Positions 1 to 8,863 of a DNA stretch of 8,863 nucleotides are shown piece by piece; position 1 is the first letter of the stretch; each line of letters opens with the position of its first letter. Under the pieces are notes generated by a model. It had not been told where the DNA came from, did not search any database, and saw nothing but the letters and a program-made list of their open reading frames with translations. Both the position numbers and the translations under genes were made by a program. The stretch is from Paraspadella gotoi (taxonomy: Eukaryota; Animalia; Chaetognatha): the NCBI GenBank assembly GCA_051294375.1, contig CM119267.1:167413-176275 (forward strand). Reading direction: 5' to 3'.

Positions 1-55
1 GTCGTGATGATATCAATGATTATGATTAATGATCCCAGTTTCATTTTTCCTCCAG

Positions 56-166
56 GTTCCCTACGCGACAGCATGGACATTTTCATGGTTTTTGTGCCTC
101 TTGTACGTTTTCGCTCCGTTGGCAGAATACGCCATCATAAACGTCATGCAGCAGTATTACAGAAAG
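56..166 (+). CDS. Exon (111 nt) encoding M3 of a Cys-loop anion channel, antisense to the other exons: VPYATA[WTFSWF or MDIFMV]LCLLYVFAPLAEYAIINVMQQYYRK
   Basis: TTTTTCCTCCAG acceptor (AG at 54-55) and AAG|GTGAGG donor (GT at 167); V-x-YATA..C..VF..L-x-EY..N matches GABA-A/GlyR M3; starts in phase 0. Confidence 0.9.
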
Positions 167-1214
167 GTGAGGATGAGCGGGGAAAGTAAGGTATTAAAGA
201 GAATCGAGGTAGGAAGGAAGGTAGGGAAAATTATATCTGGTTTGACCTTGACCTTGCTCTGCGTAATTGTGACCCGATGGATTTTGGATCAATGACCATT
301 ACACATTGGTCATGACTGGAAAGTCATGGCCTTAGCTATCCATTTTGCTTGAAACGAGGTTATTGGCAAGAGGGACCCGAGAGGTAAGGGTGCTGAATAA
401 AGTATGCATAGGTTTTCCTGCAGACCTGCTAGACTGAGAGACTTATCAATTCAAAAAGTCGTTCGTTTAAGTTGAAAATAAAGTTTTTTTGAGACGTCAA
501 AATTACTCAAAACTTATGTTTTTAAAACTAAGTTAATGTTAAAATTTAGTCACTGAAATGAAGGTTATTTTATCCATCCCTAAATTATATAAATTATGTT
601 TGAGCTGCCTCGTAATAATTAATAATATCAAATTGTGTTTATTTTTGCTGACTTTCTCCGTAGACGACGACCGAGAATCCAACGATGTTTTAAAATGTTT
701 ATTGATGCAATCGACGATTATTTCAAGTTGTTTCAAAACAAACAATGATTTAAAAAGGTATAAAAACACTTTAAAAGCACACCTTAAAAGCAACACGTTA
801 AAGCAACGAAAACGTTCGACATCACGGCTTAACGAGCAATCCTCTGACTTTTCCTAAATTTCAAACGTTAAAAATAAGCCAGATATTTGCTTTCTTCTTC
901 ATATCATCAACGAATGGACCTATAAACGGACTTGGTTGCCCTAGTGATGTGATTGCTCGTCTCCTTCACGAATCATCAGAATACCGACGAATCACAGACC
1001 TTACTTCAACCTTAGAATGACCAATGACCGACAGAGGAACGACGGAGGATTGATGGTCAAATATCTTCTCCGAGCCTTATCATGACCGTCATCTTCATCA
1101 TCATCACAATCAATCGTGATTAACCTCATCATCATTTTAACATCCTTTAAATTTTGAACATCAACAACATCGTCATCATGAAAGAATCTAAAAACCAGAT
1201 GAGTTTCCCAGCAT

Positions 1215-1345
1215 CCACAGCAAAACCATCAACTCCTCAACTGCACTCCTTCACTCCAGCAAAACTAACTCCTCTACTCCAGCACCATTGAATCCTTCAC
1301 TACATCAACAATGATACCTTTACTCCAGAAACATCAACTCCTCAC
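1215..1345. repeat. Degenerate ~22-bp tandem repeat at the 5' end of the intron after the M2 exon
   Basis: Recurrent ACTCCAGCA / CATCAACTCCTC units on the + strand. Confidence 0.6.
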
Positions 1346-1407
1346 CTTTGGCAAACCCGATCGTTCGTTGAATCCGACCGTGGTCATCGACAAGACCGTC
1401 ATCACTC
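1346..1407 (-). CDS. Exon (62 nt): M2 and M2-M3 linker, [21 protein letters not shown]
   Basis: TTTCTTTCTCACAG acceptor and GTGAGG donor; TVL-x-MTT and R-x-x-LPK motifs; ends in phase 0. Confidence 0.96.
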
Positions 1408-4124
1408 CTGTGAGAAAGAAAATTGTAATTATAATGAATTATAATAGTATATAATAATCCTCACTACTGTCAGGAGAGACAATTTTGGGGGAATAAATCA
1501 CTTCTGTGGAACAGCTCATCAATCTCACTTCATCATCTCAACTCGATCAACATTACGACATCATCATAACTCCATCGTCTCAACTCCATCATCTTCACTC
1601 CATCATCTCACTCTGTTTTCTAGACCCCATCGTCTCACTCCATCTTCTCAACTCCATCATCCTAACTCCATCATCCTAACTCCTTTATATTCACTCCATC
1701 ATCATAACTTCATCATCTTAACACCATCATCTTAACTCCATCATCTTAACTCCTTCATCTTAACTCCAGCATCTCACTCAATCATCCTAATTCCATGATC
1801 TCAACTCCATCATCTTAACTCCATAATCTTAACTCTATCATCTCACTCCATGATCTTACCCAAAGCGACTCTGGCCGGCTCGCACTCTCGGTCGATCCAA
1901 AATGCGACCCAAGACATGACGACGATGAGACAACAAGGGATGTAGACGTTGATGATGAAGTAGCCCGTCCGTCGTTGGAGGTGGAAGTAGACTGTCAGGG
2001 TCGAACGGCGCTCATCGGCTGGAGAAAGGGGGGAAGGGAGAGAGAGGGAGAGAGAGAGAGAGAGGTAGGAAAGAGGGGAAGGAGAGAGGGGAAGAGAGAG
2101 AGGAGGAGGTGAGAAGGAGGAGAGAGAGTGAGGGGGAGAGGAGGAGAGAGAGGGGGGGAGAGAGAGAGGGAAGAGAGAGGGGGGGAGAGAGAGTGAGGGG
2201 AGAGGGAGAGAGAGAGAGGGAGGAGAGAGAGTGAGAGGGAGGGAGAGAAAGGAGGAGAGAGAGAGGGAGAGAGGTAGGGAAAGAGGGGGAAGGGAGAGAG
2301 GAGGGAAGAGAGAGAGGGAGGAGGTGAGAAGGAGGGAGAGAGAGTGAGGGGGAGAGGGAGAGAGAGAGAGAAGGGGGAGAGAGAGAGGAAGAGAGAGGGG
2401 GGAGAGAGAGTGAGGGGGAGAGGAGAGAGAGAGAGGGAGGAGAGGATGAGGGGGGGAGAAGGGAGGGAGAGAGAGGAGAGAGAGAGGGGGAGGGAGAGAG
2501 AGGGGGAGGAGAGAGGGAAGAGAGAGAGGAGGAGGTGAGAGGAGGGAGAGAGAGTGAGAGGGAGAGAGAGAGAGAGGGGGAGAGAAAGAGGGAAAGATAG
2601 AGGGGGAGAGAGAGTAAGGGGGGAGGAGAGAGAGAGAGGAGGAAGAGAGAGAGAGGGGAGGGAGTGAGAGTGAGAGAGACAGAGAGAGAGATGCTTGTAA
2701 AATAAAACGCAGACTCTCTTTCTCAAATGTTAAAGAGATGGACAGACACTGTCTGTGATAATGATTATGATGACGATGATGACAGTGATAGAGATTTTAT
2801 TATGGATTTGGCAACAAATTATGATTAAATACTAGATTTAGAATTAAGTTTATTGATTCAGGAATATAAATGGGGGCTTTTCGAAAAGAGAGCCGTACCG
2901 CCAACAACAACAACAATTCCGTGCAATCTCGATCATTCCCAATCCTCTTCTCTCTTCTAAATCTATACCCTGACTTACCCTCAGAATGAACTCACCCTTC
3001 CCGGCGAACGTGACGTTGGCGCTGCTGACGTTGATGGCGAGAAGGTCATATTGACTCAGCGTCACGCGAGGACTTTTCGTCACGGAATTGTGATTCCCCT
3101 CTTTCCAGGCATACGTCACGTCTTTGGCCGGGTATCCGTCTCAATGAAAATGATAATGATAGGTTATGACAGGCTTATGATATTGAAAAACATTAGGATA
3201 ATTATGATTATAACACTAAAAAAGTTTCTAAAAAAAAATTACGATAAATGATAGATTATGATAAAAAATGTTAAATTTTAATAAATTTTCCTAGCTCGTC
3301 ATGATATAATTATTATTTAATCATATTTATATAAATTACGATAAATTTAGATAAATTATGATAAATTAGCAAAGATGATGATTGATCTCCGTGTCATTTT
3401 GTAAAATCAATTTTTTGAAAATAGGAAAAAAATGTTTTAAAAACAGCACAGCGATGACCCACATCATTCATGTGTAATTTTATTTGTTACGAGATAGTCC
3501 TCGGTTGTTGATGCCCTTTTTATTATTGAATTTCGTATTTCTGTTGCTTACGAAAGTATCTGATTGATCAAGTATTTTAAAAGTCGCTCTCTGATTGTTA
3601 GTCCTTATGATTGTACCTTAACCAAAGATATAAAAGAGATGTGCTTACCAAAAACTAAGAGGATAAGTTACCAATGATTCGTGACAGTCGGTAAGCATTT
3701 AAAATGATATTTGTAATTTTATGGTTAAGCTTAAAGTTGACTATTTTTAATAAGTTTTTTTTTTTTTGTATCTTTAGAAATAGTCTCCCTTCGACTTGCT
3801 TTATGTTTCCCTTCAATTTGCTTCACGTCTCACGCTCATGTTATGTCTACTACAATAAATATTACTAAATTTACATCTTCGAATCTCTATAAATAAATAG
3901 CAAGTCAGAAAACACTAGCTCGCTCACGGCGTTACGGTAAAATCCTCAATAATTCTAAAAACTAGTTAATGTTATTTTCAGTTTAATTTTAGATCACCCT
4001 GTATTCGATGAGACTCACAGCTTCCAATGTGCAAAGGACAACTTTGAATGTCCATCGGATATCGGTGAAGATTCATGGGGCAGTCCGCCTTTATGGTGAT
4101 TCTGGTGAGAGAGAGGGGAAATTA

Positions 4125-4174
<50 letters not shown>

Positions 4175-5352
4175 CGAGAGAGAGACCTCATGGAATAAAT
4201 GATGCTTCCATTCTCATTGATTCTGAAGAGTTTGTTCGGCACAGTCGTCAAATGAAGATAAGACTTTCGTCCGTTCGTGATGTAGGTGTCGGGCTTCCAA
4301 ATTCTCTCCAGCATTTTGATGTTGAGGGAAAGAACTTCAAGTCCCTCTGGTCCCTGGAATTTGAGAGGGTTGGGGGGAATCAGGGGTGATGTAGTGATGG
4401 CGAAAGGGAGATGGGGAAGATTAGGGCCTTATTTTCCAGGAACGACCCATTTCATCTTAAATTTAGTTTTTGAGTTAAAAATTAGGTTAGAGATTAAGTT
4501 AGAGATTTGGTTTGTGATTAAGGTTAGAGATTAGTTTATAAGTTTATGAATAATTGAATATATATTTAAGTTAAATATTAAGGTTAAAATTAAATTCTGG
4601 GAAAAAATACACCAACAAGAAAAGAGAGCTCAGATTTTTCGAATGAATTACATCTGAAAACAAGACTGAAGTTTTTCTTTTTTTGCATAGTGATTTAATA
4701 AAAACCGCGACTGACACAACATTTTTAAAACTTACCTTGCACACTAGTTGACACCGATAGTTGACACTTTGGCTCCTATCATTTCCTTTCCTTTCATTAA
4801 AGCCGAGATTTATTCGGACCTTACCTTGAACTTTAACCGTTTATCCGTCCAACTTTGGCGAAAATAGCAATCCACTGAAAATCCCTGTAAAAGTAGGAAT
4901 GAATGTTATGAGTTAAAAAAGAAAAGACGAAGATAAAAAAAAAAGAAAAAAGAAAAAAAGAACAAAAAGAAAAGAAAAAGAAAAGAAAAGAAAAGAAGAG
5001 ATAAGAAAAGAAAAGAAAAGAAAAAAAAGAGAAAAAGAAAAGAGAAAAGAAAAAAAAATAAGAAAAAAACGAAAAAGATAAGAGAAAAGAAAAGATAAAA
5101 AAAAGAAAAGAGAAAGAAAAAGAGAAGGATAGGAGAAAAGAAAGAGAAAAAAAAAAATAAAAGAGAAAAGATAAAGATAAAAGAAAGAAAAGAAAAAGAA
5201 AGAGAAGAAAGAAGAGAAGAGAAAGAGAGAAGAGAAGAGAAGAGAAGAGAAGAGAAGAGAAGAGAAAAGAAAATTAATCACCATATTTTGTTCTGAAATC
5301 GGTCCCATGGATCTGACATCCATCCAAGTCAAAACGTTCGTTGGATTTCCGT
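1346..5352 (-). CDS. Partial multi-exon gene: Cys-loop ligand-gated anion channel subunit (GABA-A receptor-like), extracellular domain to end of M2
   Basis: Manual splicing of exons 5352-5282, 4884-4825, 4353-4187, 4101-4019, 3139-2996, 2018-1860 and 1407-1346 gives one open frame: [138 protein letters not shown]...[78 protein letters not shown]. All intron phases match. Confidence 0.96.
1520..1859. repeat. Minisatellite with a 13-14 bp unit (ACTCCATCATCTC / ACTCCATCATCTTA), roughly 25 copies
   Basis: Tandem units are directly visible and fill most of the intron between the M1 and M2 exons. Confidence 0.9.
1860..2018 (-). CDS. Exon (159 nt): pre-M1, M1, M1-M2 loop and start of M2 (..[43 protein letters not shown])
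   Basis: CTCCAG acceptor after a long pyrimidine tract; GTAAGA donor; canonical M1 (YIP..LIV..SWV.FWI) and PAR motif. Confidence 0.97.
2022..2690. repeat. ~670-bp AG-rich polypurine tract (polypyrimidine on the sense strand) with a ~213-bp higher-order period
   Basis: Almost entirely A/G; the landmark GGAGGTGAGA recurs near 2105, 2320 and 2531, and GAGAGGTAGG near 2060 and 2269. Confidence 0.92.
2996..3139 (-). CDS. Exon (144 nt): loops B/F to start of loop [13 protein letters not shown]...LSQYDL...FAGK
   Basis: Phase 1 at both ends fits the neighbouring exons; GTGAGT donor; acceptor reads TTTTCATTGAG (atypical GAG); overlaps ORF 2850..3119. Confidence 0.9.
3225..3368. repeat. AT-rich low-complexity repeat (ATAAATTAYG-like)
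   Basis: Several AAATTACGATAAAT / AAATTATGATAAAT copies. Confidence 0.55.
4019..4101 (-). CDS. Exon (83 nt): Cys-loop, [27 protein letters not shown]
   Basis: CACCAG acceptor and GTGAGT donor; C-x13-C signature containing YPMD. Confidence 0.97.
4107..4185. repeat. (AG)n microsatellite filling an 85-nt intron (4102-4186)
   Basis: Directly visible. Confidence 0.92.
4187..4353 (-). CDS. Exon (167 nt): loops A and E, GPEG...[11 protein letters not shown]...GSIIYSMR
   Basis: TTCCAG acceptor and a weak GTCTCT donor; WxPD motif; overlaps ORF 4015..4314. Confidence 0.94.
4470..4595. repeat. Degenerate GTTAGAGATTA-type short repeat
   Basis: GTTAGAGATT occurs three times, plus GTTAAA variants. Confidence 0.5.
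4825..4884 (-). CDS. Exon (60 nt): loop [21 protein letters not shown]
   Basis: TTTTACAG acceptor and GTAAGG donor; D-x-YFRQ-x-W-x-D-x-RL motif. Confidence 0.94.
4914..5273. repeat. (AAAAG)n/(AGAAG)n purine tract filling intron 4885-5281
   Basis: Directly visible; it is the source of the F/S/L-rich part of ORF 4913..5332. Confidence 0.92.
5282..5352 (-). CDS. Exon (71 nt): beta1 region, [24 protein letters not shown]
   Basis: TTTTCAG acceptor and GTGATT donor; VRSMGPISE motif typical of GABA-A alpha/Grd-like subunits. Confidence 0.9.
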
Positions 5353-5573
5353 CTGAAAATTTAACGAAATTAATTTTATTAACATTTTTGTTTTTAATAA
5401 TATCCTTTAAACTAAAACAGTTTTAATTCATTTAACTAGGAAAAATAACAAATATGACCAAATCAATATGTTAAATACAACTGAATTCACCTGCTTAAGC
5501 TTATTATCTGAGTCTCTCTCTTTTCCTGGTCAACCTGTCTGACCACTAGCTTTTTATCAGCATTGAAACCGCC

Positions 5574-6187
5574 CACACTGCCCTGATTTTCTAAAAGACC
5601 TCCAGTGTTAACGCCCTGCTCCTTCCTCTCCCCTGCCTATCTCATACACACTGCCTGATTTTCTAAAAAGACCTCCAGGTTAACGCCCTGCTCCTTCCTC
5701 TCCCTGCCTATCTCATACACACTGCCTGATTTTCTAAAAAGACCTCCAGGTTAACGCCCTGCTCCTTCTCTCCCTGCCTATCTCATACACACTGCCTGAT
5801 TTTCTAAAAAGACCTCCAGGTTAACGCCCTGCTCCTTCCTCTCCCTGCCTATCTCATACACACTGCCTGATTTTCTAAAAAAGACCTCCAGGTTAACGCC
5901 CTGCTCCTTCCTCTCCCTGCCTATCTCATACACACTGCCTGATTTTCTAAAAAGACTCAGGTTAAAACGCCCTGCTCCTTCCTCTCCCTGCCTATCTCAT
6001 ACAACACTGCCTGATTTTCTAAAAAAACGCCCTGCTCCTTCCTCTCCCTGCCTATTCTCATACACAATGCCTGATTTTCTAAAAGAAAACGCCCTGCTCC
6101 TTCCTCTCCCTTGCCTATCTCATACACACTGCCTGATTTTCTAAAAAGACCTCCATGTTAACGCCCTGCTCCTTCCTCTCCCTGCCC
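5574..6187. repeat. Minisatellite with a ~71-bp unit, 9 copies (two of them internally deleted)
   Basis: Unit CACACTGCCTGATTTTCTAAAAAGACCTCCAGGTTAACGCCCTGCTCCTTCCTCTCCCTGCCTATCTCATA starts at about 5574, 5647, 5718, 5788, 5859, 5931, 6002, 6063 and 6125. Confidence 0.95.
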
Positions 6188-6869
6188 ATTTTAAGCTCAA
6201 TTTTTAGTCTGAATTCCCGTGATATTTTCCTTCAAACTAAAGTTCGAATCATTGAAACGACTGCCCGTATGAAAATATGTTTCTACGGGTTTTTGGATGG
6301 AATTATAAAATATTCATTATCATTAACTCTTGTCGTACATTTTGTACGGGCGATGAATCAAACGCGCATAGAAGCATAGAAAACCAGTGGCTGCGCCAAT
6401 ACAAGTAAATCACTTTCAAGGGTTTAAACTGAACTGTTACTGTGACACTAATAACATTTTGGTACTTTCAAAAATATTTTATAAATCAAAACGATATTAT
6501 TTTTGTTTCGATATATGATATATGATTAAAATGATTTTATCAAAACATAGAATAAGAAATACAATAAAATAAAATAAAATAAGAAAAAAATATTTGTTAA
6601 AAAAGAAGAGAAAGTAAGAAACAAATCCTAGTAGTAAGGAAAAGTTAAACAAACGGGGGAAAAAATTAAAATTAAAATTTTTTTTAAAAAATTGTACAAT
6701 TTTAGGTGGTATCAAATCAATCAAACAATTTTCTGCAACAACATGAGAGAGAGAGAGAAAGAGAGATATTTTGCTTTTTCCTTCTCCTCTTTCTGTCCTC
6801 CTGTATTTTTGATTATCAAATTTCATGTATCTTTTCTCATCAATACCCTATTTTTCTTATCGATGCGTC

Positions 6870-8116
6870 TTTTTTAGTCGGATCTGCTTTCAGCAGATCC
6901 CGACTCTATAATCACTTTATACTCACTTTCGGTCCGTCGGTCCCCCCTCAATATTGTCGGGCACACAACTTATATCATTGTCAGAACATCGAATTATGAT
7001 AAATTATGCAAAAAAAAATGATGTCCGTCCGTCCGTCTGTCTCGTCTCCGTCCGTCCGTCCGTCCCACCTTAGCAAAAACACCAATAACTCGTGATTGGT
7101 GGTGGATTGAAATGAAAATTTGTGTGGTAGGAAAGTGTGTGATGAAGCTTGATATAAGTTTCGATGGAATCGTGCGAGTGAAATGAGTTTAAATATGAAA
7201 AAAACAAAAAAATATATTCCAACTATTGAACAGCAATTGCCTCATGCAGGGTGGATGGGGCTGTTGACCCGGTGGAATTTTTGTATGTTGGTAGGGAAAG
7301 TGTGTGAATTGAAACAGGAAATCAAGGTTTTCGATGGGAATAGGTTCTGAGTGCGAAATGAGTTTAAAATGGAAAACAAATCAAAAAACCTGTTTACTAT
7401 GATTATGCTTCTTTTTGCGGCTTCTATATTTTAAATGTATCCTGCAAGTATGATTAATAAATCAATGATTAATCCAGTTAATTAATCAATTAGTAAATAA
7501 GTATTAATCACTAATAATTGAATTAGGTCAATTAATCCCGTCATCCGTCCCATCTTAAGCAAAAAGCTCCAATAACTTCGTGATTGGCTGGTTGGATTGA
7601 ATCTAAATTTTGTGGTGGCGGTAGGAAAGTGATAGCTGATAAATTTAGGAATATACAAATTTCGCATGGAATCCGTAGTAGCTGGAAAATTTAAGCTTTA
7701 AATGAAAAACATAAGTACGAAATTTACTAAAGATCTTTTTACATTATTTTAACCAATAAATAACTACCTATTAATCATAATCTGGCGATGGATACGATTG
7801 AAGTTGAAATTTTGTTGTGGGTAGGAAAACGCTATGACGCGAAGCTTGATATAAATTTCATGAAACGTACCAGTGGAATTAGTTTAAAAAAAAATATGAG
7901 TCACATTTACTTGAATCTTTCTTATTTATTTTAACCCATCATAGATTGAGATTGAAATTTTGTGACGGGGCGCGGTAGAAAAAGTGAGTAAGAAGCTAGA
8001 TATAAAGTTTCTGACGGAATGCAAGTTTGAAACAAATTATGCATAGTGAAAAAATGATGCACAGTTAAAAAAAATCCTTATTTTTTTTAAGCATATAGGA
8101 TCGTCGCTATGCATAA
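6870..8116 (+). mobile_element. Putative non-autonomous Helentron-associated element (HINE/DINE-1/pearl-like), possibly two nested elements
   Basis: A T-run is followed by the hairpin AGTCGGATCTGCT-TTC-AGCAGATCCCGACT (6876-6905), then (GTCC/GTCY)n microsatellites (6931-6943, 7023-7065), five degenerate ~150-200 bp internal repeats, and an inverted repeat at 8037-8049/8104-8116. No transposase ORF is seen and the boundaries are uncertain. Confidence 0.62.
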
Positions 8117-8117
8117 A

Positions 8118-8223
8118 AGAGGAGAGGAAGAGAGAGAGAGCAGAAAGAAGGAGAGTGAGAGAGAGGAGAGAGTGAGGAGAGAAAACGAGAGAGAGTGAGA
8201 GAGAGCAGAGATGAGAAGGAGAG
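8118..8223. repeat. Imperfect (AG)n tract
   Basis: Directly visible. Confidence 0.8.
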
Positions 8224-8616
8224 CATAAAGATTAAAAAATCTAAAAGACTCAGAGATCGAGCCATGCAGCCCACTATTCGATAGAAATTAATGAAAAAAC
8301 CGGCGAAAAAAACGAATGCAATTCATACAGGGCGATACACAGAATTGCTTGATGTACTTAGTAATGCATTTGAGGGTAATACTCCAATTGATTGAATGTT
8401 AATAGTAAATCTTATTGAATGTAATAGGAATTGGATTATTGGATTCGATGATATATCAATTATTGATGCCGATGATTCAGGTCATTCACTAGGCTGATCG
8501 ATGTAGTATCATGACGTAGAATGCTCATCATGACTGCGATGCATTCGCATTCATATGTCGCGATGATTGTATTCAGTGGGATAAGCAATAAAACAAACAA
8601 ATGCGTGCTATGAGTG

Positions 8617-8710
8617 AAAAGAGAGAGAGGAGCAGAGAGAGAGAGTAGAGAGAGAAATGAAGAGAGCGAGAAGTTAAAGAGAGAGAGAGACGACTGTAGA
8701 ATATGAGAGA
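8617..8710. repeat. Imperfect (AG)n tract
   Basis: Directly visible. Confidence 0.75.
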
Positions 8711-8863
8711 TGAGTAAGAATATCGTATATAATCTCTACGAAAATCTGGGGGGATGAAAATTAGGAGGATTAATTGCTATGAATGGAAAAATTAAGCGCG
8801 GAATACAATGGCAATAGATAAAAGTTTTAGAAGGAAAAAAATAATCAGATTTTCAAAAAAACC

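What the first reader, a model, noticed from the sequence alone, without database searches (positions are those of the whole stretch)
56..1407. The next exon (M3) of the channel gene lies on the opposite strand
Seen: the minus-strand gene ends its last visible exon at ...RSGLPK|GT (1346, phase 0). The expected continuation VPYATA..M3 starts in phase 0 at 56 with good splice sites but on the + strand, giving a seamless LPK|VPYATA junction. I found no M3-coding sequence on the minus strand in 1-1345 and no M4 on either strand. Established: LPKV-x-Y is contiguous in GABA-A/glycine receptors, and Drosophila mod(mdg4) joins exons from both strands by trans-splicing. Inference: options are (a) trans-splicing of convergent transcripts, (b) a real intragenic inversion, either polymorphic or switchable, (c) an inverted duplicate exon or an interleaved convergent paralog with the true exon further left, or (d) misassembly or a chimeric read. 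Option (d) is quite plausible given the sequence noise.
Basis: partly seen in the sequence, partly recalled or inferred. Interest (0 to 1): 0.85.

Follow-up and report, generated by a model that had tools for sequence, protein, structure and literature searches.

The report
Flipped assembly piece fakes antisense exon
An exon of an animal ion-channel gene points backwards only in this assembled sequence: independent DNA sequencing puts it on the same strand as the rest of the gene, so the oddity is most likely an assembly error and the gene is ordinary.

Summary
It does not hold in the organism's sequenced DNA. Of 7 DNA runs laid, 5 have a contig that crosses position 1073, and in 5 of 5 (3 samples, 2 studies) it runs straight on into window base 1 read forwards. 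That makes M2 and M3 co-oriented, with an ordinary 332-nt GT-AG intron between them. No listed contig spans the window's own join at 1072|1073. So bases 1-1072 are flipped end for end. The flipped piece starts exactly at window base 1, ends in a very high-copy repeat and carries uncorrected indels, including a compensating frameshift pair in the exon; this points to a fold-back chimeric read or a mis-oriented contig tip (0.9). A rare real inversion allele is not excluded (0.07), since only contigs were available; trans-splicing has no remaining basis (0.01). The scan noted one similar flipped piece before, in a yeast genome (e1-7827376, unchecked).

The parts
1..1072 (.). Piece that is flipped end for end relative to the organism's DNA as seen in public runs; base 1 is the true neighbour of base 1073
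   Evidence: Opposite-strand joint 7/1073 in X1, X5, X6; loose ends at 1073 in X2, X3 equal the reverse complement of the window's start
56..166 (+). M3 exon of the channel gene (37 codons, phase 0-0); truly co-oriented with the other exons. Carries a compensating pair of one-base indels around 72-93, likely sequence errors
   Evidence: Splice sites; adjacency in 33 of 48 homologues and frame comparison 14.3 vs -8.1; one window base in bin 52-102 absent from contigs of 3 of 3 DNA runs (table 2)
597..1061 (.). Interspersed repeats at the far end of the flipped piece; 912-1061 is very high copy
   Evidence: Summed contig depth up to about 40,000 against 26 for unique DNA in X1; repeat contigs stop matching at 1061
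1062..1072 (.). False join: about 11 letters at the strand switch that no laid contig covers
   Evidence: Depth 0 at 1064-1070 in 4 of 4 runs, no piece spans 1072|1073
1073..1345 (-). First 273 nt of the true M2-M3 intron (332 nt in all: 273 + 10 + window 7-55)
   Evidence: Contig coordinates, sum
1346..1407 (-). M2 exon, ends ...SGLPK in phase 0
1860..2018 (-). M1 exon with PAR motif before M2
   Evidence: Pfam PF02932 E 1e-10; GABA-A gamma-2 E 5.7e-16
2996..3139 (-). Ligand-binding-domain exon
4019..4101 (-). Cys-loop exon (C-x13-C)
4187..4353 (-). Ligand-binding-domain exon
   Evidence: Pfam PF02931 E 5.8e-07
4825..4884 (-). Ligand-binding-domain exon
5282..5352 (-). Most upstream coding exon located (needs a further upstream phase-1 exon, not looked for)

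Best explanation
The first 1072 bases of the window are flipped relative to the organism's sequenced DNA, most likely by a sequencing or assembly error, and in that DNA the M3 exon follows the M2 exon on the same strand behind a 332-nt intron that would be cis-spliced in the ordinary way. Shown: the co-oriented layout in five DNA runs, the exact abutment of base 1073 with base 1, the absence of any listed contig with the window's join. Inferred: how the error arose. The layout fits a fold-back chimeric long read (true strand read through 1073 into 1-1072, then a jump back onto the opposite strand at 1073) whose duplicated first arm was dropped, which would leave a sequence that starts exactly at the breakpoint, as this window does; a short contig tip ending in a high-copy repeat and attached the wrong way round would look the same.
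For: One contig each in X1 (study P1), X5 and X6 (study P2) lies on 1073-1510 and on 7-612/650/579 on opposite strands with 10 letters between (tables 5 and 8). In X2 and X3 a 667-nt contig covers 1073-1112 and runs on with letters that are the reverse complement of the window's start: 20 of 20 letters equal to window 7-26, then ten letters that end on window 1-4 (compared by eye). No listed piece spans 1072|1073 and depth is 0 at 1064-1070 in 4 of 4 runs. Against X1 the window has 8 differences in 606 letters of the flipped piece (3 substitutions, 5 gaps) and 0 in 438 letters of 1073-1510 (Fisher p 0.024); three substitutions are shared by all three DNA runs against the window. The exon holds a compensating indel pair. 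The window has no N and begins at the breakpoint itself. Inverted chimeras with segments under 10 kb apart and fold-back reads are described artefacts (PMC9984789, PMC12870357, PMC6218980; passages only).
Against: Only short-read contigs were laid, and these drop rare variants; the long reads and the flanks of the assembly were not available, so neither the chimeric read nor the dropped arm was seen. Table 8 was cut (459 pieces not shown) and that by 4 pieces. The short overlap expected at amplification chimeras was not found above chance (18-60% of positions score as well). Whether the library was amplified is unknown.
Confidence: 0.9

Rival explanations
1. A real, rare 1.07-kb inversion allele in the assembled individual; it would remove M3 from the transcript and likely be a null allele, and the contig would start at its second breakpoint because the assembly graph branches there.
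For: Clean break with no loss at the 1073/1 side; contigs drop rare variants; it is not known that any laid sample is the assembled individual; extra differences inside the flipped piece could in principle be haplotype divergence.
Against: No branch at 1073 in 3 of 3 laid runs of sample S1 or in samples S2 and S3; the differences are mostly one-base indels, four letters missing in the first few bases and a compensating frameshift pair, which look like read error; no inverted repeat pairs the two ends.
Confidence: 0.07
2. Trans-splicing of convergent transcripts, as in Drosophila mod(mdg4): the M3 exon sits antisense in the genome and is joined to the upstream exons at the RNA level.
For: In the window alone, both exons keep good splice sites in matching phase.
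Against: The premise fails: the exon is co-oriented in 5 of 5 informative DNA runs, which also explains the intact splice sites. No match to the 13-nt TSA core of mod(mdg4) on the minus strand of 1-1345 (fewest mismatches 5; motif from PMC4387717).
Confidence: 0.01
3. The plus-strand exon is an inverted duplicate or belongs to an interleaved convergent paralogue, with the true M3 exon further left.
For: The DNA left of the window could not be read.
Against: The same exon sequence lies 332 nt behind the M2 exon on one unbranched contig; in X2 the contig that runs into the flipped piece has depth 26.7 against 26.8 for the neighbouring unique contig, as for one copy (in X3 the figures are 119.6 and 89.7, less even).
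Confidence: 0.02

Closest known systems
Inverted (fold-back, palindromic) chimeric reads in long-read data and whole-genome amplification (PMC9984789; PMC12870357; PMC6218980)
   Same: Two neighbouring genomic segments joined on opposite strands, about 1 kb apart, absent from independent DNA.
   Different: The palindromic second arm is not in the window and was not seen; no significant junction overlap; the loop (1072 nt) is longer than the 200-bp limit that PMC12870357 uses to call a fold-back, though inside the under-10-kb range given in PMC9984789.
Drosophila mod(mdg4) trans-splicing (PMC4387717)
   Same: In the window only: a downstream exon on the strand opposite to the upstream exons, with intact splice sites.
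   Different: In mod(mdg4) the 3' exons truly lie on both strands and a U1-binding TSA motif drives joining; here independent DNA shows one strand, and the motif is absent.
Anion-selective-type Cys-loop receptor subunits (GABA-A, glycine receptor; Pfam PF02931 + PF02932)
   Same: Ligand-binding domain, C-x13-C loop, M1, PAR motif, M2 and M3 in the usual order.
   Different: No close relative found: single-stretch hits of the M1 exon reach about 55-71% identity, so the subfamily and ligand were not assigned; N-terminus and M4 not located.

Membership tests
mod(mdg4)-type intragenic trans-splicing | Exons of one mRNA lie on opposite genomic strands | tested here: not met
   Co-oriented in 5 of 5 DNA runs that cross 1073
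mod(mdg4)-type intragenic trans-splicing | Spliced mRNA joining exons from two separate transcripts | tested here: inconclusive
   No RNA holder listed; the one guessed RNA run X9 covered only repeats
mod(mdg4)-type intragenic trans-splicing | TSA core (13-nt U1-binding motif) in the last 5' intron | tested here: not met
   Fewest mismatches 5 of 13 on the minus strand of 1-1345; a fly motif, so a weak test
mod(mdg4)-type intragenic trans-splicing | Separate promoter for the 3' exon | not tested
   No flank or RNA available
Inverted chimera / mis-oriented assembly piece | Opposite-strand join of nearby segments that independent DNA does not show | tested here: met
   no listed piece spans 1072|1073; 5 runs show the other join
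Inverted chimera / mis-oriented assembly piece | Short overlap (about 5-8 nt, PMC9984789) at the switch point | tested here: inconclusive
   Similarity between window start and the stretch ending at 1072 is at chance level; the sequence there is noisy
Inverted chimera / mis-oriented assembly piece | Supported by one molecule only in the source long reads; palindromic second arm | not testable with these tools
   No raw reads or genome held
Cys-loop ligand-gated ion channel subunit | Ligand-binding domain with C-x13-C loop | tested here: met
   PF02931 above cut-off; loop in exon 4101-4019
Cys-loop ligand-gated ion channel subunit | M1-M2-M3 in order in one reading frame | tested here: met
   PF02932; phases; adjacency in 33 of 48 homologues; order on one contig
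Cys-loop ligand-gated ion channel subunit | M4 helix and signal peptide | not tested
   Expected outside the exons located; flanks not held

The most novel reading that the evidence does not exclude
The assembled individual carries a real 1.07-kb intragenic inversion that turns the M3 exon of a Cys-loop channel gene antisense with both splice sites intact, and the gene is rescued by trans-splicing between convergent transcripts, a new-born mod(mdg4)-like arrangement segregating in a population.
Probability: 0.01. Interest if true: 0.85.

Novelty: not a real feature. Interest (0 to 1): 0.04.

Why it matters
As biology it does not: the gene is an ordinary Cys-loop channel subunit. Practically, this assembly has a flipped 1.07-kb piece that would truncate the gene model before M3 and mimic trans-splicing, so antisense-exon findings next to contig starts in this genome need a read check. 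Had it been real, it would have been a second-strand exon in an ion-channel gene and a model for how intragenic trans-splicing begins.

Tried and rejected
No whole genome was held, so the DNA left of the window could not be read. No RNA holder listed; X9 (RNA by guess) covered only the repeats at 562-1071 and says nothing on splicing. A search of longer proteins with the M1 exon found nothing among 15 candidates; the HMMER search of cluster representatives gave 3860 hits at E up to 0.001, of which the best 150 were used; of these, 48 met the M2 and length filter and 15 of the 48 did not place the M3 exon at gap 0. Pfam did not recognise the short exons 56-166, 1346-1408, 2994-3140 or 4024-4104 on their own (4 of 6 queries blank). 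Inverted repeats flanking the flipped piece: none by self-BLAST or repeat search; an apparent end-to-end microhomology seen by eye was at chance level and was dropped. The idea that sample S1 equals the window's haplotype at three variable sites was weakened when X3 of the same sample showed the other allele at 1152. Two scripts with wrong exon ends were superseded. A paper search for ligand-gated ion channel + trans-splicing + opposite strand + exon gave 2 papers, 1 listed (PMC7704054, listing only, not read); I make no claim on what is in print beyond that.

Full report
Observation. The window holds seven minus-strand exons (5352-5282, 4884-4825, 4353-4187, 4101-4019, 3139-2996, 2018-1860, 1407-1346), each between AG and GT, chaining in phase without a stop. 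Two of six exon queries hit the Pfam ligand-binding and transmembrane models of neurotransmitter-gated channels above cut-off, and the M1 exon matches GABA-A and glycine receptors (best E 5.7e-16). The exon at 56-166 on the plus strand has AG and GT ends and is phase 0 to 0. In 33 of 48 filtered homologues it aligns immediately after the M2 exon, and only frame +2 of 1-1345 scores as M3. I did not search for M4.

Test against independent DNA. Eight DNA runs from five samples and two studies hold the stretch; no RNA holder was listed. All are kept as contigs. Laid on 1-1510, each of three DNA runs (X1, X5, X6) has one contig that matches 1073-1510 on one strand and 7-612, 7-650 or 7-579 on the other, with ten letters between and at least 255 letters on the shorter side. 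Laid on 1022-1222, X2 and X3 each have a 667-nt contig that covers 1073-1112 and then leaves the window; the 30 loose letters shown equal the reverse complement of window 7-26 (20 of 20) followed by ten letters that end on window 1-4 (compared by eye). X7 and X8 do not reach 1073 with unique sequence. So 5 of 7 DNA runs laid cross 1073, and 5 of 5 (samples S1, S2, S3; studies P1, P2) show the M3 exon on the gene's strand, behind an intron of 273 + 10 + 49 = 332 nt. No listed piece crosses 1072|1073 as the window does, and 1064-1070 has depth 0 in 4 of 4 runs.

Anatomy of the flip. Base 1 of the window is the exact neighbour of base 1073 in the contigs, so the window starts at the breakpoint. 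The far end of the flipped piece is a stack of repeats, with summed depth up to about 40,000 against 26 in X1; repeat contigs stop matching at 1061. Against X1 the window differs at 8 of 606 letters in the flipped piece and at 0 of 438 in 1073-1510 (Fisher p 0.024), and it lacks four letters in its first few bases. Inside the exon, codons 7-13 fit homologues in another frame (mean BLOSUM62 14.3 against -8.1, n 33), and one window base in bin 52-102 is absent from the contigs of all three runs, which fits a compensating indel pair. The piece thus looks less well corrected than its neighbour. No inverted repeat or significant microhomology pairs its ends.

Mechanism. Shown: co-orientation in the public DNA and the abutment of 1073 with 1. 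Inferred: the error's origin. A molecule that reads the true strand through 1073 and on through 1-1072, then switches to the opposite strand at 1073, has two inverted copies of the upstream part around a 1072-nt loop; dropping the first copy leaves exactly this window. Such inverted chimeras are described for amplified DNA, with segments usually under 10 kb apart and overlaps of 5-8 nt (PMC9984789, passages), for long reads generally (PMC12870357, passages), and they can enter assemblies as false inverted duplications (PMC6218980, passages). A contig tip attached the wrong way round at a high-copy repeat fits as well; I cannot tell the two apart. Earlier scan notes place other windows 377 kb and 22 Mb beyond this one on the same piece (unchecked), so the window is likely part of a large scaffold; that it is one contig between gaps is my inference.

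Rivals. A rare real inversion allele (0.07) cannot be excluded without the source reads, but three runs of S1 and two other samples show no branch at 1073. Trans-splicing as in mod(mdg4), where 3' exons lie on both strands and a U1-binding TSA motif promotes joining (PMC4387717, passages), needs an antisense exon that the DNA does not have; the TSA core is absent (5 of 13 mismatches at best). An inverted duplicate or paralogue (0.02) is contradicted by the single unbranched contig and by equal depth in X2 (26.7 and 26.8; less even in X3).

Verdict. Not a real feature of the organism as far as five DNA runs show; the gene is an ordinary Cys-loop subunit of the GABA-A/glycine type whose subfamily I did not assign. 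No supplements were read; none bears on the main test.

Noticed in passing
window 912-1061: Very high-copy interspersed repeat (summed contig depth up to about 40,000 against 26 in X1), beside lower-copy repeats at about 597-779 and 817-912; family not identified.
   Followed up: partly
window 72-93: Compensating pair of one-base indels inside the M3 exon; the other frame fits homologues, so likely uncorrected sequence errors.
   Followed up: yes
window 304, 1152, 1397: Sites where X5 and X6 differ from the window and X1; 1152 shows both alleles among runs of sample S1. 1397 lies in the M2 exon.
   Followed up: partly
window 1517-1858: Degenerate 14-bp tandem array in the M1-M2 intron; a weaker 23-bp array at 1247-1361.
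   Followed up: no
window 5574-6190: Tandem array of about eight 71-bp units, 84-93% alike.
   Followed up: no
window 2030-2690 and 4910-5275: Long purine-rich (GA and A-rich) low-complexity tracts inside introns.
   Followed up: no
window 7105-7888: Several degenerate copies of a roughly 100-bp unit (75-79% alike); this end of the window also looks noisy and was not checked against reads.
   Followed up: no
window 5353-8863: The most upstream exon found needs a further phase-1 exon with the N-terminus; it was not looked for.
   Followed up: no
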